Assembly (NCBI GenBank): GCA_951804945.1
Contig: OX638155.1
Span: 72,850,001 to 72,914,000, forward strand
DNA length: 64,000 bases
Origin: Podarcis cretensis
Lineage: Eukaryota
Direction: 5' to 3'
In this document: one piece after another, positions 18,296 through 58,880 of the stretch
Layout of the letters: each line of letters starts with the position of its first letter
How positions within the stretch are numbered: the first letter of the stretch is position 1
Position numbers and translations under genes: made by a program
The notes under the pieces: model-generated
What the model saw: only the letters and a program-made list of their open reading frames with translations
Databases searched by the model: none
Told to the model about the DNA's origin: nothing

Positions 18296-18301
18296 TTTAT
18301 T
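18296..18301 (-). terminator. Candidate polyadenylation signal AATAAA overlapping the stop codon
   Basis: AAA TAA A on the minus strand; GU-rich 'ttgcatatgtgtttc' about 25-40 nt downstream. Confidence 0.4.
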
Positions 18302-18491
18302 TTAGTATCTTGTGGTAAGGAAGAACGTTAAGTGTTGAGGTGAAGGCCCGTATGTCCATAACAGAAGGGAGATTCAGCAGAGGGGAGGAGGGGAGGAATG
18401 TTAGTTCAGCTGTTTTGCCAAAGAAATTCCCCTGAACGCTGTAGGTGCGTGCGAAATCCGTGTTCCCTTCCTGTTTGCCATAGCCAACCAC
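18297..18491 (-). CDS. NRDC: NRDC-like terminal exon 31 (VVGYGK...[19 protein letters not shown])
   Basis: 195 nt to TAA; matches the nardilysin C-terminus. Confidence 0.96.
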   Translation of the reverse strand: MVGYGKQEGNTDFARTYSVQGNFFGKTAELTFLPSSPLLNLPSVMDIRAFTSTLNVLPYHKILK

Positions 18492-21400: not shown

Positions 21401-24400
21401 ACATTCTAGGTAGTCCAAAGCATTCAAGGAAGGCATGAAACAGGTTTGAGTGAGAAATGAGGCCTGTGGGGGGAGGAGTCCAAGGGCCAGACAGAGAGGC
21501 GTTCGACCCCCAGGACTTCAGTTCCCCATCCCTGATTATATATATGGCATCCATTGATACTCCCTCCCATAAGTTCCATATCTATCTGAGAGAGAGAGCA
21601 CACATACTCTGATTTCAGGTATACTCACATGGGTGCTCAGCACTCGTTTGTTCTTGCCCCTGAATCCTAGGAACCAGTCAAGCAAATGGGATTTTCTAAA
21701 GCTCTTCAGGGCTACAATCTATAAGCCATAAAGAAAGAGAGCTTCTTAGGACAGATACACACTCCTTTGTGTCCTCCATCCAGCAAGCAAGAGACATTAT
21801 CAGACACATACCAGACAGGCAAAAACTCTCAAGAAGGGTGCAAAGTAGGACTGTGGACAAGGAGGAGGCTTAGTTTGGTTGGGAAGGGCAAGACAGAGAG
21901 ACCCAGAGGACCACATTTTGGACCCTGGAACTGAGGCTCCCCACCCCTGATATAGTCCTAAAACAAAATGCAGATATTGCCCTAGGAGGAGTGTATGAGC
22001 ATTATAAATGAGCACCATTACATAAATTTCTCCATAGTTTCTTCTCCCTTTCCCCAAAGTAGAGATAAACCTTGAACCATCTTATACGGGATAGTTTATC
22101 TTGCAGTCCTATGCCCATTGACTTGGAAAGAATGCCAGTTGAAAGGCTTGATCTGGATGTATTAAGAAAAATATAAGGGATATGCTACACATCAGTTCGG
22201 CTGTTTACAGGGATTCTTATTTTGGAATCCGCCCAGTGCAACTGTTCCAACAGCCCCGTACACTCGTCACAATGTATAAACTCACATTAGCAAGCTTAGC
22301 AGAACAGTCACCCCAGCTTGGGGCAAGCTAGATGTTGATTCCTACAAGTGAGAGAAAATCTGACACCAATTTAAGAAATTTCCCCCTGTAACCACATTTT
22401 GGGATCTTGAAGATCTCAAGGCACAGCTGCCTCACACATGACAAACACTGAGAGAACATTCAAGTAGTAAACGAGCTGTTCATTTTCACTTGTGAAGAGC
22501 TGTGTGTTAATTTTTTTTGGCTTTGTTTTGCAAGAGCATAATTCAATTAGGAAGCCTAGATCTCAGGTCTCCCCTTTTGGCCTTGTCAGCACCATGTAGG
22601 CAATCACACACAGTCAGCCCAGTCCCACAAAGGCAATAAACCGCCCCCCTCCATTTTATGGACCAGGAGCAAAGCCACTTAACGATTACAACAAACAATT
22701 AACAAGAGACGAAGACGGGTAGCGTTTTACTATTTACTACCTCTCGGGCAAGTCTGTCAAACACGTACTGCTGAGTAAGCACTTCGTTCCAGTTCCTGTC
22801 CACCTCTTCCCCAAGATGGGCATCGTCAGTTTGCTTAAGCTTTATGAGAGCTGAGACCTGTAAAACATGTGGCTCCTGTAGGAATGTCTCTGCTTTTGAC
22901 AAAGTTCTGTTTCCAAAAAGCAAAACTTGCACATTGCCATGAATGTTTGTTTCTCGTTCCAAGGCGTGCACTCCTTTTTATGCTCTGATCCAATGAACAG
23001 GCAGGCAAAATATGTGGCTACATGCAGCAATGGATAGGCACAGAGAAACAGCAAAATTATGGTGTGGCAGCAATCTATTTGACCTTTATAGCTGAACTTA
23101 GGGCTTGTCCATTCTTCCGCTTGTCTCAGTGCTTTCCCCCAGGAAAACCTACACTTTAGCACTGAATTAGAGCAAACCAGGTGTGACGTTAACATATGAG
23201 AGTGCTGGAGGTGAAATAGTTAAACATGTTACCCAATCAGGACCCAGGGGATGGAGTCAGAGGGACTATAAAACAAGCTCTGGGAGGGGCAAAGGGAGGA
23301 GTTCGTTGGGAGGTTGGTTGGAGTGGGAGTGAATTGGGATAGAGTTTGTGGGTAGGTTGAGTTAGTGTAGTGAAATAAGCTGAGTCAGGAACAGTTAGGG
23401 GTAGGAAGACAAGTAAATATCTGAGAGGTGGTTTAGTGAGTGAGAGCAGGTAGTGGAAGTTATAGGTCTGGATAGGCACCCCATGAATGTAATTGACGGA
23501 TACCGTTTATGAAACCACACGCTTGTTGGACTGCAACAAATAAACAGAAGTTTATGTTCCAATTTAACCCTGGCTGGACTCAGTATTGTACCAGGTAGGG
23601 CCTGGGTGGTGGCAGCGAGAAATAAAGTGGTGGCCCAGGGATCAATAGATGGTGAAACATCCGGGGACCCTGTGTGATCGCCACACCAGGTATCCAGCAG
23701 ATTGATGTTTTGCGCCGATTCAGTGGTAAAGAGCAGGCTTTCCAAGGGAAAGTGGTGGGGAAATGGAAAACAGCTCGGACCCAGGAATAGAAAGCACAGG
23801 ATAAGCAGACAACCTCTTGGATCCATAATTCAAGGCAAGGGACAAGTGTAGTGTATATGATCCTTTGTTGGTTGCTGGCATCCATCTGTCTTGAGAGACA
23901 ATGGAGTATGCCTCCGAGGGTGAAGTCAAACTGCTATGTTAGCAGCACCGAAGTGACCCCCCTAGAGTGCAAGCCTGGGCAGTGTGTGTTTAGAGGTCCT
24001 GGGCTGCCCAGACGACAATCTCCCACCTTGGCCTCACTTATGTGGTCAAAGGAAATCAGAGCAATACGTTTGGCACCAGCTTGGCTGCAGGAGTTGCCGG
24101 AAGGAGGTGTACAAGGTGCCATTCAACGGTCTTAGGGACTCCACTCCAGATTTGCGTAGGGTTTACTCCTTTGCCTTATTTTCTCTTGAAGATGTCCCAC
24201 AAGAAGTCCAAGATAAATGCTCAGGTGCCTAAACCAGTCTGGATGCAATGCACAACGTAAAACAAGCCACAAGTCTTACCTGAGCAGAGAACTCATCTTC
24301 ACTTAATTTCCGGAGTTTTTCTTCAAAGTGCACAAAGAACTCTTCTATTTTTTTATCAACAAATTCAGTGCTAAAAGTTATCAAGGGCATCAAGAAGAAG

Positions 24401-27400
24401 TTTAGTTGTTATTGACCTAACCCCTTATGTGCCCACATGGCCTCTTAGATTTGCATAACTGGCACTTTTACACGTGCCACATGATATATGTACATTCTGC
24501 AGCAAATTGAGGGCATGGCAGGTGCCACTCTTGGGAACTCCCTTCCCATTGATAGCAGCAATTAACTGTCTTCACTGTATGTTTTCCATGCCCGCTAGTA
24601 ACATTTTCTTTTCCGTAAGTGCATAATTTTTGCATGCCATATTAACATGTAGTTTTTTAGTCGGTAACATTGTTTTTATATTAATGCCTTTTTAAAAAAT
24701 GTAACGTGTCTTTATTTAATTAAGTTATTTATATACCACACAATAACTGAAGTTTCTGTATGGTCCTTTGTTTTAGGAAGCGGTGCATGCATTTTGTTAG
24801 AGGAAATAAAATTTCACATAGGAATTCACAAAGATTGAATTCCACAGGAAGCATCCCAAAAAGGAAGCAAAGGGACCAACAAGAAACCAGAGTGTCCTGA
24901 AGCTTTTGGTATATCATGCACCTGCTAAGCCTGGGGAGACTGAATCTGACAGGCCTCAAATGAAAAATAATAGTAGCACTTATGTGGAATGTATTGCATT
25001 CAACAAAGGTAATCTTTTACAGCTGGTTAATTAAGCTAACAGTTTCTCTCAAGCAAACAATAGGGAACTCATTTGTTGCTTGAAGATTCATCTCAAATGC
25101 ACTGCCCGAATATAAACATTCTCAGGTTCTTTATATTACCAGCAATGAGCATATTTTCACAGGCAAGAGCTTCATAAAAAAAAAGAAAGCAACAGTGATG
25201 GCTGGTGATCTTGGTTCAGCTAATTGATTAATTATGACAACTACTCAATTGAGACTTTAAAATCTAAGAATCGTATTTACAGCACATAGAAGAAACAGGT
25301 GTTTTAAATTCTGGGGGTGACAGCTGTACACATTTGGAAACTGAAACTTGGTTTTTAACACGCTGCAATAAGACCAGGACAGGCAATCAAGCAGGGCGGT
25401 TGTGGAATCCAGGATTTCGTTTTTCTAGCTTTTTTGCTCGAAAAACACTGGGTCCTTTAGGTTAGATTCAGACTTTGCCTTTCAAGATCCTTCTATGCCA
25501 TGGAAGGCTGCTGTCACTGGAGGTAGGGGAGGCAACATTTGCTTATTAATTCAACACCATTAAGTCTGAGCTCTTCTACATTTGTTTCAAAGCAACATAT
25601 GAAATAAAGGATTTTATGAACTATATAGTCTTATAAAGTCTACCTTTATTAGCTCCCAATCCGGCTAAAGTCCGATGTGCTATTAAGGCAATTGGACTTA
25701 CGTTAACCACAATGGCTGCGTTGGACCAATAACACCTGAACTTAATAAGCCAAGACACATATGAGTCTGATGTCCCCTCATGCAGCCATTTCACTGTTCC
25801 CATCACTTATCTGAACAAACAAGCCAGGATGTTTTCATTCTATCAGTCTTGAAAAATGATTTGTGTGTCTGTTTGTTTTCTATAGGTTCGGCAACCTCTC
25901 GCGATATCGTCACCAAGCTTGTCACAAGGACTCCTGAAGTGGTGTTTGTTGTTGATGTTTGGGTGATCACCAGCAGCTTGAATCAAGATGGCGGACCCAA
26001 ATGTCACTTTGTTGTGACATTGTCCATTTCTTTGGCATAGGCACAGCCAGCCGAATCTTGAGATATCCTGGCCAAACTCATTGTTCCTTTAGTTTTTAGC
26101 GTGATTAATTGTACCTGCCTCCAGGCCACAGACAATTCATGTAGAAAAGCTTATACAAGGAAACACATAATGTAAACATAAGCAAATGCATCTTGCAAAA
26201 GACACTAAGATTCTCAAGCGCTTTGGAAGAGAGCAGTAGAAACATTATTAATGGGGAATTATGGGACATACAATGCACCTTGGCTGCAGTTTATACTCTA
26301 AACATGTCATATCTGTTTTGGAAAAGTGCAGGCCTATGCAGAGCCCTAGAATGTTCAGAGCCCTAGAATGGAAACAATAATATTAAATTTAACTGCTCTT
26401 GAAAAAATATTAATAGGCGACTTACTTATATTTGGTTGCCTGTGTTGTTACGGTAACAGAGAAACCCAGGATCCCAGATGTATTTCTTGTGGAAGGGTAG
26501 ACATGGTAGCTTAAATCAAAGGAAAAGAATAACATTCCACAAGCACAAGTCATTTTATTCTGATCATTAACAAGTACTAATTAGTATATGGGAGCTATCC
26601 ATCAAAACTGGTTCTCCCACATGCTCAATTAAAGTGCATGGAAGCAATACTTGGTAGATGGTTCAGATTGCATCATTAGAATTAGTGCTTTAAACCAGTG
26701 ATTTTCATTACTGCCTTTCAATGTGCCAGCTGCCTAAATGGAAGGCACATTTCAAGATTTGTTCTAACTATGTGAGTTGTACTTTTTCCGGGCTGATTCT
26801 GTATGCCTTACCGTAACAGTTGTGACATTTGTGACTACAGCATGGCACCATGTATTAAACTGTTTTGGGGATCTTGTGTTTGCATTGTGTCTGCACCAAA
26901 ACTGAAATTACTGAACAGCTGGAGAGGCAGGACTTGAAAGGTTTTGGTCCCTGGTTCTTGGTAATGGGATCATGAGAAATTTCGCATGCAGACAAACTCT
27001 AGAATGGGCTGGAGTTGGCCCCTGAAGCATCTTTATTTAACTTCCTCCTGCCACTACTATTTCTTTAATACCAGATTTGAATTAGATGTAATAAAGGGTT
27101 AGCTCTCAGAGTCATCCATTGGAAGATGATATCCAGCATTACTCATATTTAGAGTAACTTTATTCCCTAAATTTCAGTGGGTTTACTCTGATAATGACTA
27201 GGACATTACTCACAGAGCTTTTGGATGCAATATCATCCACGTCTTCTTGTACTGTTGCCTAATGTGCATTTTGGAAAGGGCCACTGGTGATTTTCTTATT
27301 TGGGGCTTCTTTTTTGCAAGCTCGTTTACACTTCATTAGTGACTTTACAAGCACACATGGTGTATATCTGTAAAACTTATTGCTGGAATAATAGAATGGT

Positions 27401-28882: not shown

Positions 28883-28922
<40 letters not shown>

Positions 28923-40851: not shown

Positions 40852-40940
<89 letters not shown>

Positions 40941-46900: not shown

Positions 46901-49900
46901 ATCGCCGTTTACCTTCCCGCTGGAGTGCGGTCCCTATTTATCTACTTGCACTTTGGGGTGCTTTTGAACTGCTAGGTGGGCAGGAGCTGGGACTGAACGA
47001 CGGGAACTCACCCCGTCGCGCGGGGATTCGAACCACTGACCTTTCGATCAGCAACTCCCGCGGTACCTCAGGTTAAGAATTTAATTCGTTCTGGAGGTCC
47101 GTCCTTAACCTAAAACTGTTCTTAACCTGAGGTACCACTTTAGCTAATGGGGCCTCCCACTGCCACTGCGCCACTGCCACGCAATTTCTTTTCTCATCTT
47201 GAACCAAAGTTCTTAACCCGAGGTACTATTTCTGGGTTAGTGGAGTCTGTAACCTGAAGCGTCTGTAACCTGAAGCGTCTGTAACCCAAGGTACCACTGT
47301 ACTGGCATAGGTGACCCCTGTAGTCATAAAGTTACTTATCTTGGGCGCTGCATTGTCAGCAAAACAGTTCATGGTATGCGATCTCATACGAACCATGACA
47401 AAATTCTTCCAAACATACGTGCACCCCCCCAACCAACAACTTAACATAGCATTGTATAACAAACATGCATACTCACATATATATAACTTATAGTTCAGCA
47501 CAGGGAGATTTTTATACCTCTAGATTGGACAACTAGATTCATATAGTGGGCTGAGTAGTGACGCGTCCTGAAATCCCTAAGCCTCTGATAGGTGTTAATT
47601 CTGTTCTTTTTCGGCGAATGTTTAAGTGTCTCCGCATTACCTGCAAATTTTTAACGGGAAGAGATTTGCTTTGAAATCAGCGAGGGTTTTAAGTTTTCAT
47701 GTTCGTGCATCAGATATCTTAGTCCTAAAAAGCTTCTCCAGGACCAATCATGCATCTATTTTTTATTTTTTATTTTAGCATGATTAGCCCAAGTCATGAA
47801 TATCAATCGTGACAGTTACACTGCATTCAGTTAGAAGTTCCACCTAATAAACAAGTCTCACCCAAATAATGGCAAATTATGGATATTTCCAGATGTCTCA
47901 GGAACCTAAGCAGCTCTCTTATAATACCATATTCACTCGAATTTAATGCTCACCTTTTTGGGCCAAATTACATTGCCAAAATTAAGGTGCGCATTAGATT
48001 CGATGGCACATTTACATTTGCCAGCAAATACCTTTTTTGGTTTCAAGGTTCTGAAAATTGAGGTGCGCATTAGATTCGATGGCACATTGGACTCGAGTAC
48101 GGTAAATACTGTAAGTCAGATTATCAGTCCTTTTAGCAATCCAAGGGCAGAAACTCTCAAGGATTTCAGATAGGAGTCCTTTACAACCTTCTCGAGGAGA
48201 CGCCAATGATTGAACCTGAGACCATTTTCAGGCAGAGCATCTGTTCCAACTATGGCTCTTCCCCTATTTCAGGGGTTGGGAACCTCTGGCCCAAAAGCCT
48301 AATTAGGCTCACCAGGCCTCCCCATTTAGCCCACCTGGTCATTTGGCCAAGTCTTGTCTGCCTGTTCAACACCTGATTCTAGATATAACTGGACCAAATG
48401 GGGTTTGTAAAGGTAGGACATCAGCTGATCATCTACATGGGCAAAAACGGGACACCTCATGTCATTGGCCCATGGGTGATAGGGGAGAGAAGGATTTAGT
48501 CTGTCATCCAGGTCCAGTGTTGGCATGATGGGAACAGTATTTTTGTTCTTCAATGCCGGGTTGTTGTTATAGACCGTAACAATGTGCCCCCACTACTCAA
48601 TCACTCTGTTGTCTTATGTATACTGAGTTAATAAGCACTATGAAGTCAGGGCTGGGACTAATTGCTGCCTGACCTGCTATTCTGCAGGGTTGACAGGCCA
48701 ACTTCATGTAATCAGCTGGTCAAAAATAATCTGCTAAATTTGTTTGCCAGGGCTTGCGTTTCAGGGCCATGCTGGGTTAAATCCCAAACTAAGCAGAAAT
48801 GAAGCAATTCAGGAAAAAAACAACAACCAACCATCAGCCAAAGATCTTTGGAAGGAACCAGAATTAAGGGCTTTTGTTCAAGTACAACAGCTCAAGAATT
48901 CCCTAATGCTTTTAAACTAAAACCCCACACTTTAAACTGAACCTCGCAACATTATACTTACCCCAAAAGAATTTTCTCATAGGATGTCCTTGTTTTGCAA
49001 GGCTTCCAAGGAGCAATTCTCTTCTGTTAGCATCAGAGGGCCTGGCTATTTGATATTCTGTTTGTTTTGAAGAACACATTAAGCAGCAGAAGGGAGAGTA
49101 CCTTTTTCAGTGATAAGATCATTTAGACAAGGAAACAGCCTATTAACACACATACACGAAGCAGCAGCGGATGAACTGACCTACCTACCTCATCTACAAT
49201 GAGAGGGATGGAAAGAGACAAACCATTCTGCTGCATACATCTGATGGGCTGAATCATGGAGTTCCCAGGGCACCAGGGAAGGGAGGCACTGCCCATTAAA
49301 TGAACAGAAATAACCAGCATCACAAGGAAAATGGAAGCTGTGGGAGCTGCGGTAATTGCCTTCTCCTCCTTTAGGTCCATGTCAACATGGTGCCATGGGA
49401 TGAGCAGGGTGGCAAGGAAAGGAAGAGATCACAGTGGCCCTTTAATTCATAAGAGGAGCTTTGCTGGATCAGACCAAAGGCCCACCTAGTTCACCATTCT
49501 GTTCCCACAGTGGCAAACCAAATGCCCAAACAGGATGCGAGCACAACAGTGTTTTCCTACTCATGTTCCCTAGTGACTGGTATGCAGTTACCTTTGATAC
49601 TGGAGGCAAGATACAGCCATCTCCAGATACACCAGATACTGGAGGCAAGATAACCATATTCTCCATACATTTGTCGAGTCCCCCTTTAAAGCTGTCTACC
49701 AGCGATGTAGTGTTGGTTGTTGGCGCCTAGCCAGTGTGTGCACTGAGCAGCGGAAAGGGGTGCTAGCCCAGCCCTCACCACTGATACTGCCAGAGTGACC
49801 ACAATGGAGCAAAGCGGGGCCGACCTCAGCTGTGTGGAGAGGAGCAATAGGCTGGGCTGGGCTTGCCTGCATGGGGTGGCCTGGTTTGTGCCCCCACAAG

Positions 49901-50092
49901 AATTGTGCACTCGCGGCCACCCTCCCCCTGGCAGCCCCATGCTACGCCCCTGCTGTCCACACTGGTATCTTGTCTATGGTGCACTCCCTAATGGTAAGAA
50001 TGGTACAGAAAACTAACTTTTGTGTATCTGATAACCAGCATCTGTATAGCACTGCTTTGACTCAGACCTATCCTCCAGTTTGCCTTTTTTGC

Positions 50093-50136
<44 letters not shown>

Positions 50137-53100
50137 TTATTATTTATTATTTATACCCCACCCATCTGGCTGAGTTTCCCCAGGCACTCTGAGCGGCTCC
50201 CAATCGAGTGTTAAAGACAATACAGCTTTAAATATTAAAAACTTCCCTAAACAGGGCTGCCTTCAGACGTCTTTTAAAAGTGGGATAGCTGCTTATTTCC
50301 TTGATGGGAGGGCGTTCCACAGGGTGGGTGCCACTACCGAGAAGGCTCTCTGTCTGGTTCCCTGTAACTTCACTTCTCGCAATGAGGGAACCACCAGAAG
50401 GCCCTCGGCACCCGATCTCAGTGTCCAGGCTGAATGATGGGGGTGGAGATGCTCCTTCAGGTATACAGGACCAAGACTTTAAAGGTCAGCACTAACACTT
50501 TGAATTGTGCTTGGAAACGTAAAAAAAAGGTAAAGGTACCCCTGCCCGTACGGGCCAGTCTTGACAGACTCTGGGGTTGTGCGCCCATCTCACTCAAGAG
50601 GCCAGGGGCCAGCGCTGTCCGGAGACACTTCCGGGTCACGTGGCCAGCGTGACAAAGCTGCATCTGGCGAGCCAGAGCCGCACACGGAAACGCCGTTTAC
50701 CTTCCCGCTGGTAAGCGGTCCCTATTTATCTACTTGCACCTGGAGGTGCTTTCGAACTGCTAGGTTGGCAGGCGCTGGGACCGAGCAGCGGGAGCGCACC
50801 CCGCCGCAGGGATTCGAACCGCCGACCTTTCGATCGGCAAGTCCTAGGCGCTGAGGCTTTAACCCACAGCGCCACCTGCGTCCCCTTTGCTTGGAAACGT
50901 ACTGGATTGCTAAACGTGGATTGCTGAACTGCAGCTATATCCTAAGCAGGAAAGTGTGGTCCATTCAGCCATTCATCAAACACCATCCTTTGAGCATTCT
51001 GTACACATTTGCTGGCATACAATGTTTTGTATGTAGGAAAAGGCTGTCCCCAAGGTGGTTGTGAGCAGCTTCCTCCTTTCTACCCTCTCCCTGTCCAAAG
51101 GTTCCATTTCTTGACATACCAGGGCCTTTTTCCCATATGTAATGGCTATTCTTGTCACCTGCCATGCTCTTAACTGCCTAACTGCTAGAGCCTGCAGTAT
51201 GACCATTTCTCTGCATCTCCTAATAAAAACATTTTTGTATGCAGTTTAGAATAAGATGCACATTTTTAAAAGTAATTTCCCCTAATGCAATGTGCTTTTG
51301 TATTTCACTAATGTATTCATTTTTAGGCACACTCTCCTCAGTATATGCATTCTTGTAAACATTGATTGGTTGGGAGAATCACATCACAAAATTGGGAGAA
51401 GGGCAAATTTCAAAGGATGGCTGTGTTTCAATTCTCATATTGTTTCAGAAAATTGCAAATTGGATAGATTCACCTTTAAATGCAAACAGGATCTAATTTC
51501 TCCTCTATCCCTACAAGAAGGCAGGCATAGATGTGCAGTGTAAAATAGTTTGCAAAAAAAAAGGGAGCCAGATTCAATGCTCTGCAGTATGATATGAATG
51601 CAGGACAAAATCTGGGGTCTGGAACTGAGCCTGGCGCAGCAATGTCTAGCACTAGATCCTGTCCTGCACTCTGATTGTACTGCAGCCTGTTGAATATTTC
51701 ACAAAGTGTGCAAGGCCAATTTTAAATGGGATTACAGGTCTAAAATCCTCTCAGACTAAAGAGGTAGGCCATTAATAGTCCTGCTTTACAAATGAGGACT
51801 CGGAAATTAAAGAGAATATATCCACAAAATCAGACAGCTGAAGATTAGATCTAAAGTTTGGAGGCACAGTTGAAAAATCCAGGATGCATGGGTTGGAGGG
51901 GAAATAATTTTTCCTACAGTGAGAAACCCACGTTGTCTGTTGTGCTTTGTGAAGCATTGTATTTAACCTCAGACATAAAAGACTAGAGTTAGACAAAGGT
52001 AGTCACTCTTTTCCTCTTAGCCCGTCACCCATGTCATCCTCACAATTAACACACATTGTGAACTCACACCAGAAAGTGACATATCTCCACATTTTATAAC
52101 AACTTATAACCTGAATGCATTTAAAGACCTACTGAATTCAATGGGATTTATTTCCTGAAGATATGCTTAGAATTGCAGCCTTACAGTTAATTACCTAGTT
52201 CGGTATGCTCTGGGAACTGATAAAATTACACTCCCAAAATTTATTGACCACAATCCAACATAAAGTTAAACACTCTTAAGACCATTATTTCAAAGGGCTT
52301 AAGGAGGCTTAAATATTTGGATTGTGGACATTGTATCTAAATATTACTTTTATAAAGTGGTTACATAAAACATGGGTCATCCAAATTTCATGATAGGAAT
52401 GCTACTTAAACCTGATGAGATCGTTTCTCTTAAGAATTGCAAGAATATCAACAATAAAAAATTTAGATCAAACCCATTTGTTTTACCACTATCTACAGCT
52501 TCAACTTCTCGGTCAATTGCATCCTTAATCATCAGTGGCTGGATGAAAAATTGTGCCCATCTACAAGAGAAATTGAAAATCGGGTTTCTGCTGTGCTGAA
52601 AAGCAGAACTATAATATTCTGTTTTGAAAAGTGCATATACAGTCCCTTGGGATATACCGTTCAAGTAACTTACTCAGAGTAGACCATTTAAAATTACCAG
52701 TACACACTGGTCCTGCTATCCAAACACTTGTTATACAAAATTTCACTTATCCAAACATGAGGAATTAGTACCCAAACCTTGCTATACGTCCCCCACAGAT
52801 TCAGATATCCAAATAGCCAGACCTGAGTTTAGTACTGTAAATAAACAGCCTCAAATAAGTCTTATTTCTTGTGTTCTGCTTATATATGGCAATCGTTTTG
52901 CCAAAAATCATGGTGGGTGGGGGGGGGGGAAGGAAAGAGAAGAGATAGGACAAATAAGAGCATTTTTTTCCTTCCATGGTTGCCTTTTGAAAGGTTTCAT
53001 AGGGTTTCCTGGAGTTTCCCTGCTCTCCCCCATCATTTGGGGGTCAAAATTCCCCATAAGAATCAGTGGAAATTGTTACTTGTTATAAGAATGCTCACCT

Positions 53101-56100
53101 CGCAAACTGTTTCCTGAGAATGCATTGTGTTCAGATAGTGGGAACTGCATATAATGACCATTAATAACTTTGCACACTGCTTCTCACTCCCACTCCTCTA
53201 GTGTACATCTTCCTGGTTGTTATTTGGTTTTGTGTTGCAAAGTTACCTGTCGAGGGCTTCCCTAAAATATTTTTTCTGGATATCAAAATGGAAGACTGTT
53301 CGCTCTGTGTCTGTCGAAGCATTGTCTGAGCCTCCGTGCTTCTTTAAGAATGTATCGAACCCATTCTCATCTGGGTATTTCTGGCTACCCATAAACACCA
53401 CTGAAAGAAAACATTGAAAAAATTGGGTGCATGCCTTCCAATCCTGGGATATGCTCAGAGCATGTACTGCTGCTGATCATTTCAATGAACCCCATGCATA
53501 TCTCTTGCTGAATCTTTTTGCTTTAAGCCAAACAGCTTTCGCGATACATTGGAAGGAGTGCAAGACTTGATTGTGGCAAACCTCAAAGGCTGGGGGGATG
53601 GTTTTATAACACTTGGGTCATTACACTACTGTCACACACTGGCTGGACACAGAGGAATGGTGGGAGGAACCAGCTGGGAACCCCCAAGGGAAGAAATTTC
53701 AGAGCCCTGGGAGGAAGTGTCTGAAGCTGAAGAGGTCACAGGGCTTAGTGAGCAGGGAGAGTCTGTGGCAGAGAGATGTGCAGAGTCAGAGTCAGAAGTT
53801 GAAGCAGGGGAGAAGGGAGGCCAAGAGGCAGAAGTGAATCAATCTGGTGAAGAAGTTAGGGTGTCTTCCCCTCCTGCTGCGACAAGCTCCCCTTCCTCCA
53901 CATCTCCCAGAACCAAGAGAGGCATGAAGAGGGTGGAGGAGAAGTCAGTTTCATGCTGCCGTAGTCTCCAATTTCTTGGGAAAACCCTGGAGAGAAGGGG
54001 ACTTAGGCAGCTGGTGAGGGGCATGGAGCTTCCATCTCAGCAATTGCTTCACAGGGCAAGACCTGCCGGAGATGAGTTGCTGTGCTCATTAGGCCTGTGC
54101 GACCCATACAGCACATAGGCAGCAATTATTCACACAATTAATATTCTTGTTCAAAAACAATTTTTCACCATTTATCAAATTTGTGAGAATAAGACAACTA
54201 CTTACAAAGTGCCATGAAAACTTATAAGCTATCTAAAATAAAGTGAACTTGCAGCATCAGATATTTATTATTTTTATTTTATTTATTAATTGTGTGAATA
54301 ATTGCCGCCTATGTGCGGTACGGGTTGCACAATCATTATTAACAGCACAGGTTATTTTTATTTTATTTATTAATTGTGTGAATAATTGCTGCCTGTGCTG
54401 CATGCATTGCACAATCATTATTAACAGCACAGGTTATTTTTATTTTATTTATTAATTGTGTGAATAATTGCCGCCTATGTGCTGTATGGGGTTGCACAAT
54501 TGTTATTAACGGCACAGGTTGCATTTCTTCAGCAGTGCTCATTAGTGCAGATCCTGTTTTTGCTAACAGTCATCTCCAACTTGCTCAGTGTAATTTACTG
54601 TTGGCTCGATGCTGTCACTGCAGAGCAGACTCTGCTCTGAATCCAAGGCCAATCTCAGCACTTGGAACCTTGGGCAGCTCCTAAGATCCAGGTGCTGTAG
54701 CAGAACCCACAAGCATTGTTTGGGCCCTCCGGACTGCCTTTTCCCTCAGCCATGAGTTTATCTGGTGGCAGCAACAGAATCTGGGAAAGTGCCTGCTGTT
54801 TTAACCTCCCCCTGCAGTGCCACAGAGTACACACAGAAGTCTTCTACCCTCTCAGACCTCTGAAATGAGGCTCAGAAGCAGCTTTGTACTTCAGGATAGT
54901 TTGCTGTGTGTCCTTGGTTATGAACTGTGTGTGCCCACGGGCCAAGAAAGGTTGGTGACCCCTTATCTAATGTGATGTTGCTCTGAGGCATTATGGGAAA
55001 TTTAAAAGGTGGGTGGCTTCCCAGACTCAGTTGTTACTGCTAGGCAACCACTAGAATGGTCCACTAGGAGGGATTTTGGAAGGTCCCCCTCAAATGTGGT
55101 ACTGCATATTGCATGGTATCACAGAGCAGGCAAATAAAGCAGGGTTCCCCAACCACCCCAGTGATTTCATTATGCAGATATGTTCACAAAACATTCCTCA
55201 AGTCTGATGTTTTGGAATACATCCCATCATCCCTGACCATTGGGCATACTGGCTGGAGCTAGTGGGCTCTGGAGTCCGAAATATCTGGAGACACCAAGCT
55301 GAGGGGGGGTATGAGATTATGGGAAGACATTGCTTTCTTTGGGCCATTAACTGCTAAGTTTATTTATTATTAATCTATTAATTCTTTTCAACCATGATTT
55401 CATCAACTTTTAAAATAAAACTATAAATCAGTTTCAAGCTGTGAGTAAAAGAAAATATTGATAATTGTGTTTTGATTCCAGAAAACTGCCTCCCAGGCCA
55501 ATAAATTATAGACTATCTTTTCAGTGGCTTTCTTTTTTGGTAGAAAGACATATAGAAGTAGCTACGTACTGTGCTCCAAAAAATGAGCTAGTCCAGGTAA
55601 ATCATCAGGGTCACAGAAACTGCCAACACCAACAGCAAGGGCAGCTGCAGACTGTAATATATATAGAGAGAGAGGGGGGGGGAGGATAGACATTATATCA
55701 CAAAGAAAGCAGCATGTTTCCCCAATATAAAAGAATTCCAGTTCCATCACAATGCTTCCCCATCTTAAAGAAAACAGATCAAGACTTAGGCTGCATTCAC
55801 ACCATAAATTTGAAGCACATTGAATGCAAATTATTTTCCCCAAAGAATACTGGGAGCTGTAGCTTAGCCTAGAACTACAGTTCCCAGGATTTGTTGGAGG
55901 GGCAATAATGTGCTTTCAGTGTATGGTGAGGTGTGTCTCCAGCTCCAAGGGCCTTCTGGTGGTTCCTTCTCTGCAAAAAGAGAAGTTACAGGGAACCAGG
56001 CAGAAGGCCTTCTCAGTAGTGGTGCCTGCCCCGTGGAATGCCCTCCCTTTAGATGTCAAGGACATTAAAGAACTACACAACTTTCTGAAGACTTCTGAAG

Positions 56101-58880
56101 GCAGCCCTGTATTGGGATAATGCTTGATATTTTGCTGTGTTTTTATTATGTTGGAAGCCACTCAGAGTGGCTGGGGCAACCCAGTCAGATGTGTGGTGTA
56201 TAAGTAATATAATATGTTGTTGTTGACACCAAAATTCTCTTTGTAGTCACCTGTATTTTCCATACTGTGTAAGTAAGTATTAGTTCTATGAAAAATTTTC
56301 TGTGCAGTGCCCCTCCATCCAATCCAGTCAGAAGTATAGCTCATTCTCCCCCTTTCATAGAGGACTCAAAACCTTATTCATAGAATCATAGAATCATAGA
56401 GTTGGAAGAGACCACAAGGGCCATCGAGTCCAACCCCCTGCCAAGCAGGAAACACCATCAGAGCACTCCTGACATATGGTTGTCAAGCCTCTGCTTAAAG
56501 ACCTCCAAAGAAGGAGACTCCACCACACTCCTTGGCAGCAAATTCCACTGTCGAACAGCTCTTACTGTCAGGAAGTTCTTCCTAATGTTTAGGTGGAATC
56601 TTCTTTCATGTAGTTTGGAACCATTGCCCCGTGTCCGCTTCTCTGGAGCAGCAGAAAACAACCTTTCTCCCTCCTCTATGTGACATCCTTTTATATATTT
56701 GAACATGGCTATCATATCACCCCTTAACCTCCTCTTCTCCAGGCTAAACATGCCCAGCTCCCTTAGCCGTTCCTCCTGTGGTTTCCAGAAACTGGTATTC
56801 AGAATCATTACTGCATCTGACCATGAAGGTGGAGCATAGCCATGACTTTGATAGCCCTTTCCTCCATGAAACGTGCTGTGATATTCCTTTTCCTTGTTCA
56901 TCACTATTGCTTTTATCCATTTTGTAAACCGCCTTTGGAAAGATTTCATTTTGAAGGGCAGGTTAAAAATGGAAAATATATATTAATAAAGGTTAAAAAC
57001 CACTGTCGTATGAGCCAATTCAAATAATATATAGGTATACACCTACAAAAATTAAAAATGTGGCTAAAAGAGGCTTGCATAGAGATGTGTATTGTACAGG
57101 TATACTCACTGATTTGTTGCTCCTCCCTGTTGAACATACCTTACAGGTTTCCCTTTTTGTTGTGTGTCAAATATTTAGCTTAGGGAAAAGGTTGCCTGGT
57201 CAACATGCAGTTGTGCTGCTTGCTAACGTACCTGCTTTTCTGTGCTGTCCATCTTATTTTCCTCTTCTTTCTTGACTAGCTGTTCATAAATTTCATAGTC
57301 ATCGTTCTCGTCTTTGATTCTGCTTTCACGACGCTCTTTTTGTTTACCTTTTTTACCATGACCACTTAGAACTCCACCATAACCTTCAATAGTGGCCTCT
57401 TTTCCTCCAGGTACTTCTCCAAATTCTTCCACATTCCCATACTTCTCATCCTCAAAGCTGCTGTCTTTCCCATCGTCCGTATCAGAGGACATGTCTTCCT
57501 CTTCTGACGCCTCAGAAGAATTGCAGTCATCCATATATAAGTCAGAAATAAGCAGAGCGTTCAGGCCATTGCTTAATTTTATGTACCTGCAAAAGTAATT
57601 CCATGAGCATTTTTATCGTTTCTATTTCTCTTTTTGCCCAATGTGGGCGTGCATTTACCAAGATGGCAGTCACCACTCCCTTCTCTATTAACCTGGGGAT
57701 GTGCAGGGAGAAAAATGCAAGGATAATCCGGTCAAGGAGAGGGTTTTCAAATGCCTATCCAGTAACTAAACCCACCCTTTGTGGAAAGCAGCCTGTTGAG
57801 GATGAGTATGAACAATTCTGGATTGAGAAAAACTACATTATTTTTTTGCACTATGGATGGGTCAGTGTGAGCACAGCCCAAGTGTCCAACCAGCACCATG
57901 TCCTGCTTGCAACAGAAGTCAACAGACAATCACAGGAAGTCCCCAGCAGAGCATGAGAACAACAGTCACTCCCCTCTCATTTGTTGCCCCACCCCATCAA
58001 CTGGTATTAGTTGCTTGCCTATCTCTGAACCTTGATGTTCCAGTTACCTAATATCCTAAGTAAAACTGATCTGTCCGCCATAAATTTATCTACCTTTTTA
58101 AATACTATATCTAATCCAGAGCCCATAATCAGATCTTGCGGCAACAAATTGCACTAGGTGATTAAATGTCATTCAAATGTCTTCCCTTTTTTGTCTGTTT
58201 TGCATCTATTTACCCTGAATTCTAGTGCCGTGAAAGAGACGGAAAATATTCCCTTTCCATGATCTATAATTGTATAAATCTCTATTATGTCCTCCAGTTT
58301 GTCAACATCTCCTTACAAGCTCCAAGCAGTGAAGCATCTCAAAAAGAACATGGGAAACAATTCTCCACGAGATCGCAATAGGCAACCTTCGCCTATTGTC
58401 ACTGAGTTAAGCACAGCCTACCCACTTCCCAATAATAGGAATTCATGCAGATTTCCTGGGAGTCAAGTTCCCACCATTGCATTAAAAAAATAAATTGCCA
58501 CTACTAGCCAGGTATGCTGGTGGGAATGCCTTGATATTGCTTAATTGCTTCTTAATTTTTAAACTTACTATGTGACCGAGTCTGTACTTTTAGGTTATTT
58601 ACGTACTTGGGACACACTGGGACATTTACAGTGCTGCTGGCCTCTTGAGGGGGGTTGCTCTTTTCTCCAGACCCTTTATTCACCTGTATTCTTTGTGGTC
58701 GCTGGGGGACTTCACAATATCGGGGTCCCCTGCGTTTTTCTTGGCCCGGCGCTTGTGTCCTTCCTCGTCAGAGTCTTCCTGTTGTGCCTGGGTCCTTCGA
58801 CACCCCTGCCGTCTCCCCTGCTGCGGTGGGCGTAAGACTGGGCAGTTCTCAGTCACATCGGGCTTTGTCCCTCTAGACAT
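18297..58880 (-). CDS. NRDC: Nardilysin / nardilysin-like Zn metalloendopeptidase (M16A), 31 coding exons, 3375 nt, 1124 aa
   Basis: 31 GT-AG exons join in frame. Peptides match nardilysin throughout ([56 protein letters not shown]). Exon order and splice phases are internally consistent. Confidence 0.97.
18800..19037. mobile_element. Tc1/mariner (Tigger-like) MITE, subfamily A
   Basis: TA-CAGTGGTACCTC...GAGGTACCACTG-TA. Confidence 0.9.
19177..19428. mobile_element. Tc1/mariner MITE, subfamily B
   Basis: TA-CAGTCATACCTC...GAGGTACCACTG-TA. Confidence 0.88.
19525..19660 (-). mobile_element. Short SINE with tRNA head and CR1-type tail
   Basis: gatagctcagttggtagag...ggttcaatcc A/B boxes; ttccaactctacagttctatgat tail. 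Confidence 0.8.
20090..20260 (+). mobile_element. tRNA(Ala)-derived SINE, degenerate (copies also ~37893-38065 -, ~42672-42820 +, ~62183-62355 +)
   Basis: tagctca..gtagagcatctgctttgcatgcag...ggttcaatcc head and shared gagctagatggacc body. Confidence 0.75.
21629..21718 (-). CDS. NRDC: NRDC-like exon 30 ([30 protein letters not shown])
   Basis: 90 nt, AG/GT boundaries. Confidence 0.95.
22741..22857 (-). CDS. NRDC: NRDC-like exon 29 (VSALIKLK...[24 protein letters not shown])
   Basis: 117 nt, AG/GT boundaries. Confidence 0.97.
23182..23685 (+). mobile_element. Solo LTR (Gypsy-like), 504 bp
   Basis: TGTGACG...CGCCACA ends, perfect 5-bp TSD ccagg, CCAAT, TATAAAA and AATAAA; splits an older palindromic MITE (cf. 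39930-40100). Confidence 0.88.
23830..24205. mobile_element. Interspersed repeat, unassigned (RTE 5'UTR/SINE-like)
   Basis: GC-richer block resembling lizard retroposon sequence; family not determined. Confidence 0.35.
24280..24370 (-). CDS. NRDC: NRDC-like exon 28 ([30 protein letters not shown])
   Basis: 91 nt, AG/GT boundaries. Confidence 0.96.
26426..26509 (-). CDS. NRDC: NRDC-like exon 27 ([28 protein letters not shown])
   Basis: 84 nt, AG/GT boundaries. Confidence 0.97.
   Translation of the reverse strand, partial: LPCLPFHKKYIWDPGFLCYRNNTGNQI
27724..27939. mobile_element. Penelope-like element terminal-repeat remnant forming a perfect 180-bp palindrome
   Basis: 27760-27939 is self-complementary; 13-bp TSD ctgaaattcttgt (27711-27723 / 27940-27952); gtagccgtgttggtctg...gtagcaccttaaagaccaac is typical of vertebrate PLE ends. 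Confidence 0.85.
27849..27884 (+). ncRNA. Minimal hammerhead-ribozyme-like motif (mirror copy on - strand, 27815-27850)
   Basis: CUGAAGA-A-GUGUG(CAUG)CACAC-GAAA-GC-UC; palindromic stem III (AGCU); stem I only ~3 bp. Confidence 0.6.
28002..28054 (-). CDS. NRDC: NRDC-like exon 26 ([18 protein letters not shown])
   Basis: 53 nt, AG/GT boundaries. Confidence 0.97.
28525..28879 (-). mobile_element. Sauria SINE (older subfamily), followed by (TTA)n at 28883-28922
   Basis: Homology to 45-409; aaggta tail. Confidence 0.9.
29343..29390 (-). CDS. NRDC: NRDC-like exon 25 ([16 protein letters not shown])
   Basis: 48 nt, AG/GT boundaries. Confidence 0.94.
30698..30836 (-). CDS. NRDC: NRDC-like exon 24 (KLQFVPL...[22 protein letters not shown])
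   Basis: 139 nt, AG/GT boundaries. Confidence 0.96.
31226..31263. repeat. (TTTG)n microsatellite
   Basis: Direct reading. Confidence 0.95.
32002..32033 (-). CDS. NRDC: NRDC-like exon 23 ([11 protein letters not shown])
   Basis: 32-nt exon, cctag|...|gtgagt; phases fit. Confidence 0.9.
32227..32389 (-). CDS. NRDC: NRDC-like exon 22 ([13 protein letters not shown]...[12 protein letters not shown])
   Basis: 163 nt, AG/GT boundaries. Confidence 0.96.
32988..33115 (-). CDS. NRDC: NRDC-like exon 21 ([10 protein letters not shown]...EQLKKTYFN...LAK)
   Basis: 128 nt, AG/GT boundaries. Confidence 0.96.
33290..33870 (-). mobile_element. Degenerate L2 ORF2 endonuclease region
   Basis: [17 protein letters not shown]...[12 protein letters not shown] (GDFN-like APE motif). 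Confidence 0.7.
34016..34166 (-). CDS. NRDC: NRDC-like exon 20 (MVLFDTFV...[11 protein letters not shown]...KGFNHKLP)
   Basis: 151 nt, AG/GT boundaries. Confidence 0.97.
34632..34725. repeat. Perfect 47-bp tandem duplication
   Basis: tattgtattattatatttcatctagatatattttccagtattcagag x2. Confidence 0.95.
35152..35203 (-). CDS. NRDC: NRDC-like exon 19 ([18 protein letters not shown])
   Basis: 52 nt, long pyrimidine tract + CAG, gtaagt donor; phases fit the neighbouring exons. Confidence 0.92.
35570..35855 (-). mobile_element. DIRS-like retrotransposon tyrosine-recombinase relic
   Basis: [14 protein letters not shown]...FHRDRV...[10 protein letters not shown]...[10 protein letters not shown]...HSLDV. 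Confidence 0.75.
36411..36530 (-). CDS. NRDC: NRDC-like exon 18 (TDFTVKK...[15 protein letters not shown])
   Basis: 120 nt, AG/GT boundaries. Confidence 0.96.
37283..37369 (-). CDS. NRDC: NRDC-like exon 17 ([28 protein letters not shown])
   Basis: 87 nt, AG/GT boundaries. Confidence 0.95.
   Translation of the reverse strand, partial: KSMHTGAHCGTLISCCIQIYTYQKKINL
37730..37878 (-). mobile_element. Sauria SINE 3' fragment
   Basis: aaaggtaaaggtaaggggacccctgacc... Confidence 0.85.
38157..38280 (-). CDS. NRDC: NRDC-like exon 16 ([15 protein letters not shown]...[11 protein letters not shown])
   Basis: 124 nt, AG/GT boundaries. Confidence 0.96.
38502..38606 (-). CDS. NRDC: NRDC-like exon 15 ([12 protein letters not shown]...[11 protein letters not shown])
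   Basis: 105 nt, AG/GT boundaries. Confidence 0.95.
38790..38844 (-). CDS. NRDC: NRDC-like exon 14 ([18 protein letters not shown])
   Basis: 55 nt, AG/GT boundaries. Confidence 0.95.
39523..39581 (-). CDS. NRDC: NRDC-like exon 13 ([20 protein letters not shown])
   Basis: 59 nt, AG/GT boundaries. Confidence 0.95.
40512..40632 (-). CDS. NRDC: NRDC-like exon 12 ([22 protein letters not shown]...EHFYE)
   Basis: 121 nt, AG/GT boundaries. Confidence 0.97.
40855..40938. repeat. Compound (CT)n(CA)n microsatellite
   Basis: Direct reading. Confidence 0.97.
41090..41600 (-). mobile_element. Old L2 3' end
   Basis: Remnant [22 protein letters not shown]; T-rich tail. Confidence 0.6.
42233..42310 (-). 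CDS. NRDC: NRDC-like exon 11 ([25 protein letters not shown])
   Basis: 78 nt, AG/GT boundaries. Confidence 0.96.
42822..43140 (+). mobile_element. L2 ORF2 3' fragment
   Basis: [28 protein letters not shown]...APTWWNAL. Confidence 0.85.
43192..43261 (-). CDS. NRDC: NRDC-like exon 10 ([23 protein letters not shown])
   Basis: 70 nt, AG/GT boundaries. Confidence 0.95.
43495..43741 (-). mobile_element. tRNA-derived MIR/CORE-like squamate SINE
   Basis: gccagtgtggtctagtggttaagag...gggttcgattcc head, gtgaccttgggctagtcac core, (CTT)n tail. Confidence 0.8.
44279..44352 (-). CDS. NRDC: NRDC-like exon 9 ([24 protein letters not shown])
   Basis: 74 nt, AG/GT boundaries. Confidence 0.96.
45069..45126 (-). 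CDS. NRDC: NRDC-like exon 8 ([18 protein letters not shown])
   Basis: 58 nt, AG/GT boundaries. Confidence 0.96.
45151..45204. repeat. (GA)n(GAA)n microsatellite just upstream of the exon 8 acceptor
   Basis: Direct reading. Confidence 0.95.
46034..46248. mobile_element. Tc1/mariner MITE, subfamily A
   Basis: TA-CAGTGGTAC...GAGGTACCACTG-TA. Confidence 0.9.
46711..47299. mobile_element. Tc1/mariner MITE (subfamily A, inverted) interrupted by a Sauria SINE (~46719-47060, - strand)
   Basis: TA-CAGTGGTA | SINE | GGTACCTCAGG...GTACCACTG-TA. Confidence 0.88.
47518..47640 (-). CDS. NRDC: NRDC-like exon 7 ([11 protein letters not shown]...[10 protein letters not shown])
   Basis: 123 nt, AG/GT boundaries. 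Confidence 0.96.
47927..48103. mobile_element. Tc2/pogo-like MITE with internal direct repeat
   Basis: taccatattcactcga...ctcgagtacggta ends; aggtgcgcattagattcgatggcacatt x2. Confidence 0.65.
48962..49057 (-). CDS. NRDC: NRDC-like exon 6 ([31 protein letters not shown])
   Basis: 96 nt, AG/GT boundaries. Confidence 0.96.
50094..50521 (-). mobile_element. L2 3' end with (ATT)n tail
   Basis: Reverse-complement match to 6105-6550. Confidence 0.88.
50522..50885 (-). mobile_element. Sauria SINE, full-length, young, nested in L2
   Basis: About 5 substitutions relative to 45-409; 14-bp TSD tgcttggaaacgta. Confidence 0.94.
52487..52560 (-). CDS. NRDC: NRDC-like exon 5 ([24 protein letters not shown])
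   Basis: 74 nt; the third Zn-ligand Glu codon spans exons 5/6. Confidence 0.97.
53247..53400 (-). CDS. NRDC: NRDC-like exon 4 ([16 protein letters not shown]...EALDR)
   Basis: 154 nt, AG/GT boundaries. Confidence 0.97.
53630..54089 (+). mobile_element. LTR-like (Gypsy) remnant
   Basis: TGTCACA start and purine-rich low-complexity body; similar in character to 60496-61170; no TSD found. Confidence 0.55.
54090..54520. mobile_element. MITE with right terminal segment triplicated (~85-bp units)
   Basis: 54092-54142 is the reverse complement of the unit repeated three times in 54268-54520. Confidence 0.75.
55570..55651 (-). CDS. NRDC: NRDC-like exon 3 ([27 protein letters not shown]; HXXEH motif)
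   Basis: 82 nt, AG/GT boundaries. Confidence 0.97.
55935..56210 (+). mobile_element. L2 3' end
   Basis: GLLVVPSL...[20 protein letters not shown]. Confidence 0.85.
56379..56775 (-). mobile_element. CR1 3' end, same young subfamily as 8575-9631
   Basis: Near-identical to 8575-8972; (ATTCTATG)n tail. Confidence 0.95.
57232..57586 (-). CDS. NRDC: NRDC-like exon 2 ([15 protein letters not shown] + acidic domain...TEKQ)
   Basis: ttttgcag| acceptor, |gtacgt donor, 355 nt. Confidence 0.93.
58684..58880 (-). CDS. NRDC: NRDC-like coding exon 1 (MSRGTK...[12 protein letters not shown])
   Basis: ATG at 58880 corresponds to the internal Met of mammalian NRDC (MPGRNK); donor AG|gtgaat. Confidence 0.88.

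What the first reader, a model, noticed from the sequence alone, without database searches (positions are those of the whole stretch)
18297..58880. Intact but divergent 31-exon nardilysin: candidate second NRDC paralog rather than the canonical ortholog
Seen: an uninterrupted 1124-aa ORF with HFLEH and the AVDSE Glu, so it is predicted to be catalytically competent. Its full intron set points to DNA-level duplication, not a retrocopy. Known: mammalian NRDC is single-copy and well conserved, starts at a CpG-island first exon and lies tail-to-tail with OSBPL9. Here many exons differ strongly from the human sequence as I recall it ([18 protein letters not shown] vs AYIRFHLISPLIQKSAAN; VIHIIFQ vs VAYTVFQ). 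I also find no OSBPL9 terminal exons in the 18 kb downstream and no clear CpG island. Inference: a reptile-retained 'nardilysin-like' duplicate at another locus, possibly tissue-restricted and uncharacterised.
Basis: partly seen in the sequence, partly recalled or inferred. Interest (0 to 1): 0.72.

Follow-up and report, generated by a model that had tools for sequence, protein, structure and literature searches.

The report
Second nardilysin lacking its mitochondrial address
This lizard carries a second, intact and spliced copy of the gene for the peptide-cutting enzyme nardilysin, also found in snakes, turtles, crocodilians and some birds but not recovered from mammals; it has lost the front segment that sends the human enzyme into mitochondria, so it likely works only outside them.

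Summary
Confirmed. The window holds an intact 31-exon gene for a 1124-aa nardilysin with HFLEH and Glu288. Seven introns are spliced out in contigs of a probable RNA run from a relative.

It is not the canonical gene. The genome has a second copy on C6, between an oxysterol-binding-protein gene and a Rab3 gene, with a CpG island and 80% identity to human NRDC (window copy 69%). The window copy lies on C7 between ABRA and ANGPT1. All 30 intron positions are shared, so the duplication was DNA-level.

Trees place the duplication in the sauropsid stem. The paralog occurs in squamates, turtles, crocodilians, palaeognaths and waterfowl; none was recovered from mammals, galliforms or Neoaves. In alligator and mandarin duck it sits about 20 accessions from NRDC on one scaffold, so the squamate copy likely moved.

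New here: it starts at the equivalent of human Met50 and lacks the roughly 50-residue mitochondrial presequence (49 of 51 paralog proteins short; 42 of 48 canonical proteins extended). It is predicted to be an extramitochondrial nardilysin.

Databases already label it 'nardilysin-like'; my searches found no paper on it. Activity, localisation and tissue are untested.

The parts
18297..58880 (-). Nardilysin paralog ('nardilysin-like'), 31 coding exons, 1124 aa
58684..58880 (-). Exon 1 (197 nt). Starts at the Met equivalent to human Met50, carries the basic cluster KRRAKK, has no presequence
58881..58949 (-). 22 in-frame codons without Met upstream of the ATG, closed by TAA at 58949-58947; no strong splice acceptor inside
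57232..57586 (-). Exon 2 (355 nt): acidic stretch, 101 aa, 32% D/E
55570..55651 (-). Exon 3, with HFLEH (55585-55571; His207, Glu210, His211)
53247..53400 (-). Exon 4 (GGSDNAST strand)
52487..52560 (-). Exon 5 (AVDS; first base of the Glu288 codon)
48962..49057 (-). Exon 6 (completes Glu288, predicted third zinc ligand)
47518..47640 (-). Exon 7
45069..45126 (-). Exon 8
44279..44352 (-). Exon 9
43192..43261 (-). Exon 10
42233..42310 (-). Exon 11
40512..40632 (-). Exon 12
39523..39581 (-). Exon 13 (VIHIIFQ)
38790..38844 (-). Exon 14
38502..38606 (-). Exon 15
38157..38280 (-). Exon 16
37283..37369 (-). Exon 17
36411..36530 (-). Exon 18
35152..35203 (-). Exon 19 (AFICFYL...)
34016..34166 (-). Exon 20
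32988..33115 (-). Exon 21
32227..32389 (-). Exon 22
32002..32033 (-). Exon 23
30698..30836 (-). Exon 24
   Evidence: spliced joint
29343..29390 (-). Exon 25
   Evidence: spliced joints
28002..28054 (-). Exon 26 (Cys922 and LRTK motif)
   Evidence: spliced joints
26426..26509 (-). Exon 27
   Evidence: spliced joints
24280..24370 (-). Exon 28
   Evidence: spliced joints
22741..22857 (-). Exon 29 (117 nt)
21629..21718 (-). Exon 30
   Evidence: spliced joints
18297..18491 (-). Exon 31, coding part with TAA
   Evidence: spliced joint
16913..16918 (-). First AATAAA downstream of the stop (candidate polyadenylation signal, about 1.4 kb 3' UTR; untested)

Best explanation
The window encodes an intact, spliced second nardilysin gene that likely arose by a DNA-level duplication of NRDC in the sauropsid stem, lacks the N-terminal presequence of the canonical copy, and is therefore predicted to act as an extramitochondrial (cytosolic, nuclear or cell-surface) zinc peptidase and adaptor. 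Steps: (1) Shown: two copies in this genome with the same 30 intron positions, the canonical one at the OSBPL9/RAB3B-type locus. (2) Inferred from trees: one duplication after the split from mammals and before squamates split from turtles and archosaurs. (3) Inferred from shared scaffolds and close accession numbers: the copy arose near NRDC, stayed there in turtles and archosaurs, and moved in squamates to the ABRA-ANGPT1 interval, where it evolved faster. (4) Shown in sequence: translation starts at the Met50 equivalent, and the frame upstream is closed. (5) Inferred from human NRDC: such a protein does not enter mitochondria, so the duplicate hard-wires one of the two products that canonical NRDC makes from alternative starts. 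(6) Untested guess: having lost the CpG-island promoter, it is tissue-biased, most plausibly to male germ cells.
For: Two exon searches of the genome found only the window and C6 as NRDC-level matches (3 of 3 candidates, the third at 48% identity and most likely IDE; 2 of 2). 29 of 31 exons have identical length, and all phases match. Core identity to human is 69.4% for the window copy and 79.9% for C6. C6 neighbours: Oxysterol_BP exon about 7 kb beyond the stop on the opposite strand, and Rab3 exons 16 and 41 kb upstream. Window neighbours: TLDc exons closest to the zebrafish structure 4acj rather than NCOA7 (OXR1), a Costars-domain gene (ABRA), and an exon 42 of 43 identical to Angiopoietin-1. 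The paralog clade has SH-aLRT 97, 99 and 100 in three trees, inside an all-sauropsid clade at 100. AU tests reject canonical sauropsid plus mammal monophyly (p 4e-5) and squamate paralog plus squamate NRDC (p 0.016). Six derived residues unite squamate and archelosaur paralogs; none unites the two squamate genes. Both copies share a contig in seven turtle, crocodilian and duck pairs and in Emys; accessions are 23 apart in alligator and 20 apart in mandarin duck. N-terminus: 49 of 51 scorable paralog proteins are short and 42 of 48 scorable canonical proteins are extended, with basic, acid-poor extensions. Human NRDC started at Met50 or lacking residues 1-49 fails to reach mitochondria (PMC13087469, passages read). 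Catalytic residues align with IDE. dN/dS between the paralogs is 0.15 over 941 codons. Seven spliced joints match predicted introns in run X1 and four in X5.
Against: No activity or localisation data exist. Six of 48 canonical proteins are also annotated without the extension, and 2 of 51 paralog models (P0303, P0241) are long, so database starts are imperfect. An upstream exon spliced into a weak acceptor 2-10 nt before the ATG (scores 0.3 or less; true acceptors have median 6.9, minimum -0.3) is not excluded, because the 5' end was not seen in RNA. The paralog's own first 30 residues are fairly basic, and no targeting predictor was available. All trees are 'quick' trees (the careful search did not finish) and the AU tests used LG+G4 with a long squamate branch. 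In the 28-row tree the paralogs nest with turtle and archosaur NRDC (98), although canonical monophyly is not rejected (p 0.34). Location in other species rests only on contig lengths and accession numbers. dS of 1.3 is near saturation, and the ratio averages both lineages. Four cysteines otherwise near-invariant (human 216, 269, 967, 1028) are replaced in squamate paralogs, and the acidic stretch is diluted (30-41% D/E against 45-66% in canonical proteins), so enzyme properties may differ.
Confidence: 0.72

Rival explanations
1. Two independent duplications: a local one in turtles and archosaurs, and a separate dispersed one in squamates, joined in trees by long-branch attraction.
For: The copies lie in different places (near NRDC in alligator and duck, ABRA-ANGPT1 here). 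The squamate stem branch is long, 0.27-0.30. No tuatara sequence was recovered.
Against: AU p 0.016 against joining the two squamate genes; 6 shared derived residues against 0; support 99 under the site-heterogeneous model; both groups lack the presequence.
Confidence: 0.08
2. The duplication is older (amniote stem or earlier) and mammals lost the copy; gene conversion between neighbouring copies in early sauropsids made it look younger.
For: The copies are neighbours in archelosaurs, where conversion is possible. Two sites are derived in both archelosaur copies, and one tree nests the paralogs with archelosaur NRDC.
Against: AU p 4e-5 against canonical sauropsid plus mammal monophyly. No amphibian, fish, shark or mammal sequence fell into the paralog clade.
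Confidence: 0.05
3. In squamates the paralog is neofunctionalised: still a zinc enzyme by motif, but now chiefly a nuclear or non-catalytic adaptor with changed substrate range.
For: 17 squamate-paralog-specific substitutions at otherwise conserved sites, against 3 for squamate NRDC. Four conserved cysteines are lost. 18 of 18 squamate paralogs have 4 or more K/R just before the GDPxI motif, against 0 of 26 canonical proteins. The acidic stretch is longer and diluted.
Against: Zinc ligands, the catalytic Glu, the NA strand, the Arg and Tyr of the RTK..LGY motif and Cys922 are kept. This rival shares the origin story with the best explanation and differs only in function.
Confidence: 0.12
4. 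The gene is the canonical NRDC orthologue, or an assembly duplicate or decaying pseudogene.
For: Some databases name members of this clade simply 'nardilysin' (alligator, duck, ostrich, Pogona).
Against: A separate canonical copy exists on C6. The two are only 70% identical in the core and their introns share only repeats. The frame is intact, spliced and conserved across squamates.
Confidence: 0.01

Closest known systems
Nardilysin / NRD convertase (NRDC; M16A), canonical copy on C6 and human NRDC
   Same: Four Pfam M16 domains, HXXEH plus distal Glu, an acidic stretch before the catalytic domain, 31 coding exons with identical phases, about 70% core identity.
   Different: No N-terminal presequence, no CpG island, different neighbours, longer and less acidic stretch, about twice or more the divergence between squamates (e.g. 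86% against 96% to Rhineura; 79% against 91% to geckos, different gecko species).
Human NRDC Met50-initiated / delta-MTS form (PMC13087469, passages read)
   Same: Begins at the same Met and lacks the 49-residue targeting sequence; that form is cytoplasmic with some nuclear signal.
   Different: Here it is a separate gene with its own promoter rather than an alternative start or isoform.
'Nardilysin-like' entries of NCBI/UniRef in squamates, turtles, crocodilians, palaeognaths and waterfowl (e.g. XP_028594397.2, CAI5779116.1)
   Same: Same gene by tree and cluster membership.
   Different: Automatic labels only, some named plain 'nardilysin'; no origin, loss pattern or targeting difference is described in the papers searched.
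Insulin-degrading enzyme (IDE; M16A)
   Same: Closest solved structure, E 6e-154 over residues 180-1061 of P0002; catalytic residues align.
   Different: No acidic stretch; a much more distant paralog, probably the third hit on C5 (48% in exon 4).

Membership tests
Peptidase family M16A | Inverted zinc motif HXXEH plus a distal Glu ligand | tested here: met
   HFLEH 207-211 and Glu288, aligned to the IDE motifs
Peptidase family M16A | Four-domain single-chain architecture of about 110-130 kDa | tested here: met
   PF00675, PF05193, PF16187, PF22456 all above cut-off in P0002, 98.6% identical to the window protein; no structure was predicted
Nardilysin (NRDC) subfamily | Acidic stretch inserted ahead of the catalytic motif | tested here: met
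   101-aa insert, 32% D/E; less acidic than canonical (45-66%)
Nardilysin (NRDC) subfamily | Groups with vertebrate nardilysins rather than IDE | tested here: met
   69% core identity to human NRDC, 30 intron positions shared with C6 NRDC, nested among vertebrate nardilysins; IDE itself was not in the trees
Nardilysin (NRDC) subfamily | Cleavage N-terminal to Arg/Lys in dibasic sites; ADAM activation; H3K4me2 binding | not testable with these tools
   Needs biochemistry
Canonical NRDC orthologue | Lies between OSBPL9 (tail-to-tail) and RAB3B (order as recalled and as given in the finding) | tested here: not met
   That arrangement is at C6; the window gene lies between ABRA and ANGPT1
Canonical NRDC orthologue | N-terminal mitochondrial targeting sequence before the second Met | tested here: not met
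   In-frame stop 23 codons upstream with no Met; 49 of 51 paralog proteins short; 5' end not seen in RNA
Canonical NRDC orthologue | CpG-island first exon | tested here: not met
   C6 has a unique 900-bp island (GC 0.65, o/e 0.70); the window has none
Canonical NRDC orthologue | Groups with canonical squamate NRDC | tested here: not met
   The C6 copy does; the window copy is in the separate paralog clade
Retrocopy / processed gene | Loss of introns | tested here: not met
   All 30 introns are present at shared positions
Ohnolog of the two vertebrate genome duplications | Duplication predates jawed-vertebrate splits; co-duplicated neighbours | tested here: not met
   Nested within sauropsids; AU p 4e-5; no paralogous neighbours in 200 kb against 264 kb

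The most novel reading that the evidence does not exclude
Sauropsids split nardilysin's dual targeting between two genes: an undescribed, mitochondria-excluded paralog was kept across the group, relocated and re-tooled in squamates (new basic nuclear-localisation-like cluster, loss of four conserved cysteines, no CpG promoter) into a germ-cell or otherwise tissue-specific enzyme, and lost in chickens and most modern birds. It would be a natural experiment separating nardilysin's mitochondrial chaperone role from its peptidase, shedding and chromatin roles.
Probability: 0.3. Interest if true: 0.62.

Novelty: new member of a known kind. Interest (0 to 1): 0.42.

Why it matters
Nardilysin's location and function have been debated: mitochondrial chaperone, cytosolic peptidase, cell-surface shedding enhancer, nuclear co-regulator (PMC6339878, PMC13527935, passages read). 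In mammals one gene serves all these roles through alternative starts. A long-retained paralog that lacks the targeting sequence shows that the extramitochondrial form is selected on its own, and gives a natural variant with which to test it. It also matters for annotation: several alligator, ostrich, duck and lizard proteins named 'nardilysin' are this paralog, which can mislead orthology and expression studies. Lineage-specific duplicates of housekeeping enzymes are common, so the surprise is moderate.

Tried and rejected
Expression by tissue. The run search listed no holder on record as RNA. In one search, among the 15 listed joints (165 not shown), runs X7 and X13 show no spliced joint of this gene and X5 shows four at low depth, against seven in X1. 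The runs are contigs from different organisms and unknown tissues, so this is not taken as evidence of tissue restriction. The 5' half of the gene was not examined in RNA, so the transcription start is open.

Trees. The careful tree did not finish and the quick tree under the mixture model was used. For speed, 29 of 80 rows were left out and 52 of 80 out; the four unnamed Logan rows were dropped afterwards.

Co-duplicated neighbours. Six-frame comparison of 200 kb of C6 with 264 kb of C7 found only NRDC exons and repeat-like matches.

Other genes nearby. A crude exon scan and Pfam check of its stronger candidates found no other gene between ABRA and ANGPT1. The scan is insensitive.

Bird losses. 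No galliform or neoavian paralog appeared among the best 120 hits of three protein searches or the cluster lists. This is absence from ranked, length-limited lists, not shown loss. No tuatara protein was recovered.

Literature. Searches nardilysin+paralog+duplication (10 papers), 'nardilysin-like' (5), nardilysin+lizard (2), nardilysin+chicken+testis (5), and a five-term sauropsid search (242 hits, 20 listed, none of the 20 containing NRDC or nardilysin) showed no paper on this gene, judged from listings only. The essential-cysteine paper that I recall was not found. Earlier scan findings: none.

Other. Three exon-31 differences in run X1 (1 synonymous, 2 not) are too few to use. No structure or complex was predicted, since neither would decide anything here.

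Full report
Observation. A spliced model built against the closest database protein gives 31 exons on the minus strand, from 58880 to 18297, with all introns GT-AG and no internal stop. The protein is 98.6% identical to a Podarcis lilfordi 'nardilysin-like', so the genome is a wall lizard or close lacertid. HFLEH (207-211) and Glu288 are present and align with the zinc-site motifs of IDE, the closest solved structure. Within a 60-protein-plus alignment, HXXEH is intact in 35 of 36 paralog rows and 44 of 44 other rows.

A second, canonical copy. Searching the genome with exon 4 gave three matches: the window, C6:57.78 Mb (83%) and C5 (48%, probably IDE). Exon 20 gave only the window and C6. The C6 gene has 31 exons and 1183 aa. 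All phases match and 29 of 31 exons are the same length; only exons 1 and 2 differ. Its core is 79.9% identical to human NRDC against 69.4% for the window copy, and the two are 69.7% identical. An Oxysterol_BP exon lies about 7 kb past its stop on the opposite strand, and Rab3 exons lie 16 and 41 kb upstream on the same strand. The Rab exon matches Rab3A, 3B and 3D almost equally by score and differs from human Rab3B at two positions; the names OSBPL9 and RAB3B rest on this plus recalled human gene order. C6 exon 1 sits in a unique CpG island, whereas the window's upstream 500 nt have one CpG and nearby CpG-rich patches are repeats.

Where the window copy lies. In 100 kb on either side I found TLDc exons closer to the zebrafish structure 4acj than to NCOA7 (read as OXR1), a Costars-domain gene (ABRA) about 75 kb beyond the stop, and an Angiopoietin-1 exon about 97 kb upstream of the ATG. 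From recall, OXR1-ABRA-ANGPT1 are adjacent in mammals, so the gene is an insertion in that interval. No neighbour was co-duplicated, and the introns of the two copies share only repeats.

When it arose. Three trees (73, 51 and 28 rows, all quick searches, one under a site-heterogeneous model) put all sauropsid sequences in one clade (100) beside mammals. A paralog clade (97, 99, 100) holds squamates, turtles, crocodilians, palaeognath birds and duck. AU tests reject a pre-amniote duplication (p 4e-5) and a squamate-only duplication (p 0.016), and do not reject monophyly of canonical sauropsid NRDC (p 0.34), although the free 28-row tree nested the paralogs with turtle and archosaur NRDC. Six derived residues unite the two paralog groups and none unites the two squamate genes. 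In alligator the two genes lie on one 9.9-Mb scaffold 23 accessions apart, and in mandarin duck on one contig 20 apart. Gharial, Gopherus, Carettochelys, Pelodiscus, Pangshura and Emys also have both on contigs of identical length. In squamates they share a large contig in Tiliqua, Hemicordylus and Naja (about 1370 locus tags apart in Naja) and lie on different ones in Varanus, Rhineura and lacertids. I infer a local duplication followed by relocation in squamates. No mammal, amphibian, fish, galliform or neoavian protein fell into the paralog group among the 336 proteins fetched, which suggests but does not show later loss in most birds.

Is it alive? Contigs of run X1 (a related organism; RNA by the tool's guess) skip seven of the 13 introns in the laid stretch exactly at the predicted CT..AC boundaries, among the 15 joints listed; X5 skips four. 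dN/dS between the paralogs is 0.15, with dS near saturation. Full-length frames are annotated across lizards, snakes and amphisbaenians. The squamate paralog evolves faster than squamate NRDC: stem branch 0.27-0.30 against 0.09-0.13, and 17 against 3 group-specific substitutions.

How it likely works. Canonical amniote NRDC has a basic, acid-poor extension of about 37-83 residues before a second Met. In human cells, NRDC started at Met50 or lacking residues 1-49 fails to reach mitochondria and stays in cytoplasm with some nuclear signal (PMC13087469, passages read; a review reports the same targeting signal in fly and orthologues, PMC6339878, passages). The window protein begins at the Met50 equivalent, in a good Kozak context. 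The frame upstream has 22 codons without Met and then a stop, and no strong acceptor lies in that stretch. Of 57 paralog proteins chosen, 51 were scorable: 49 are short and 2 long. Of 52 canonical proteins, 48 were scorable: 42 are extended and 6 short (the rows include close relatives and are not independent). I conclude that the duplicate encodes only the extramitochondrial form. All 18 squamate paralogs examined carry a basic cluster before the first conserved motif, against 0 of 26 canonical proteins and 3 of 11 archelosaur paralogs; this may act as a nuclear signal. Mammalian nardilysin is abundant in late spermatids, at the manchette and axoneme (PMC4820967, abstract and outline; PMC13527935, passages). 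With the loss of the CpG island, this makes a germ-cell role my leading guess, but nothing here tests it.

Comparison with what is known. It is a member of M16A and of the nardilysin subfamily by every feature testable here. It fails four features of the canonical orthologue, and it is neither a retrocopy nor an ohnolog. NCBI and UniRef already hold it as 'nardilysin-like' or plain 'nardilysin'. Five literature searches showed no study of it (listings only; most subscription papers are outside the library, and no supplements were read). The scan's earlier notes held nothing.

Verdict. This is a real, conserved sauropsid paralog, annotated but apparently unstudied, whose most informative feature is the loss of the mitochondrial presequence. 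Novelty: new member of a known kind. Interest 0.42.

Noticed in passing
P0142, P0205, P0294, P0296: Alligator, mallard, ostrich and Pogona proteins named plain 'nardilysin' in NCBI belong to the paralog clade, not to canonical NRDC.
   Followed up: partly
G000:C7:72750001-72793000 (L024-L028) and L043:1769-1897: Neighbouring genes outside the window: OXR1 3' exons (+), ABRA (-) and an ANGPT1 exon (-); the paralog is the only gene found in the roughly 210 kb between ABRA and ANGPT1.
   Followed up: yes
window:58684-58880: Exon 1 remains 58% GC with 11 CpG inside an AT-rich, CpG-poor setting, possibly a relic of the ancestral CpG-island exon.
   Followed up: partly
window:59006-59056 (minus strand): A moderate splice-acceptor-like site 177 nt upstream of the ATG, followed at once by a short upstream ORF; could mark a 5' non-coding exon structure.
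   Followed up: no
window, many sites (e.g. 50-420, 28535-28880, 46730-47055, 50525-50885; 8580-9660; 11500-12500; 62755-63411): Abundant interspersed repeats: a CpG-rich SINE-like element with over 30 matches in 464 kb, and decayed fragments that look like CR1-, RTE- and L1/L2-type LINEs (family names recalled, not tested).
   Followed up: partly
P0233: A 55-aa protein labelled Nostoc sp. sits in the cluster of the lizard paralog but has no BLAST match to nardilysins; probably a clustering artefact.
   Followed up: partly
P0080: A 121-aa 'Ixodes ricinus' M16 fragment is 97.5% identical to mammalian NRDC, probably host contamination.
   Followed up: partly
P0070, P0072, P0073, P0202, P0203, fish and shark rows: Frog, fish and shark nardilysins are annotated from the second-Met position, while a caecilian has a 32-aa extension; whether the presequence is missing or only unannotated in those groups was not checked.
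   Followed up: no
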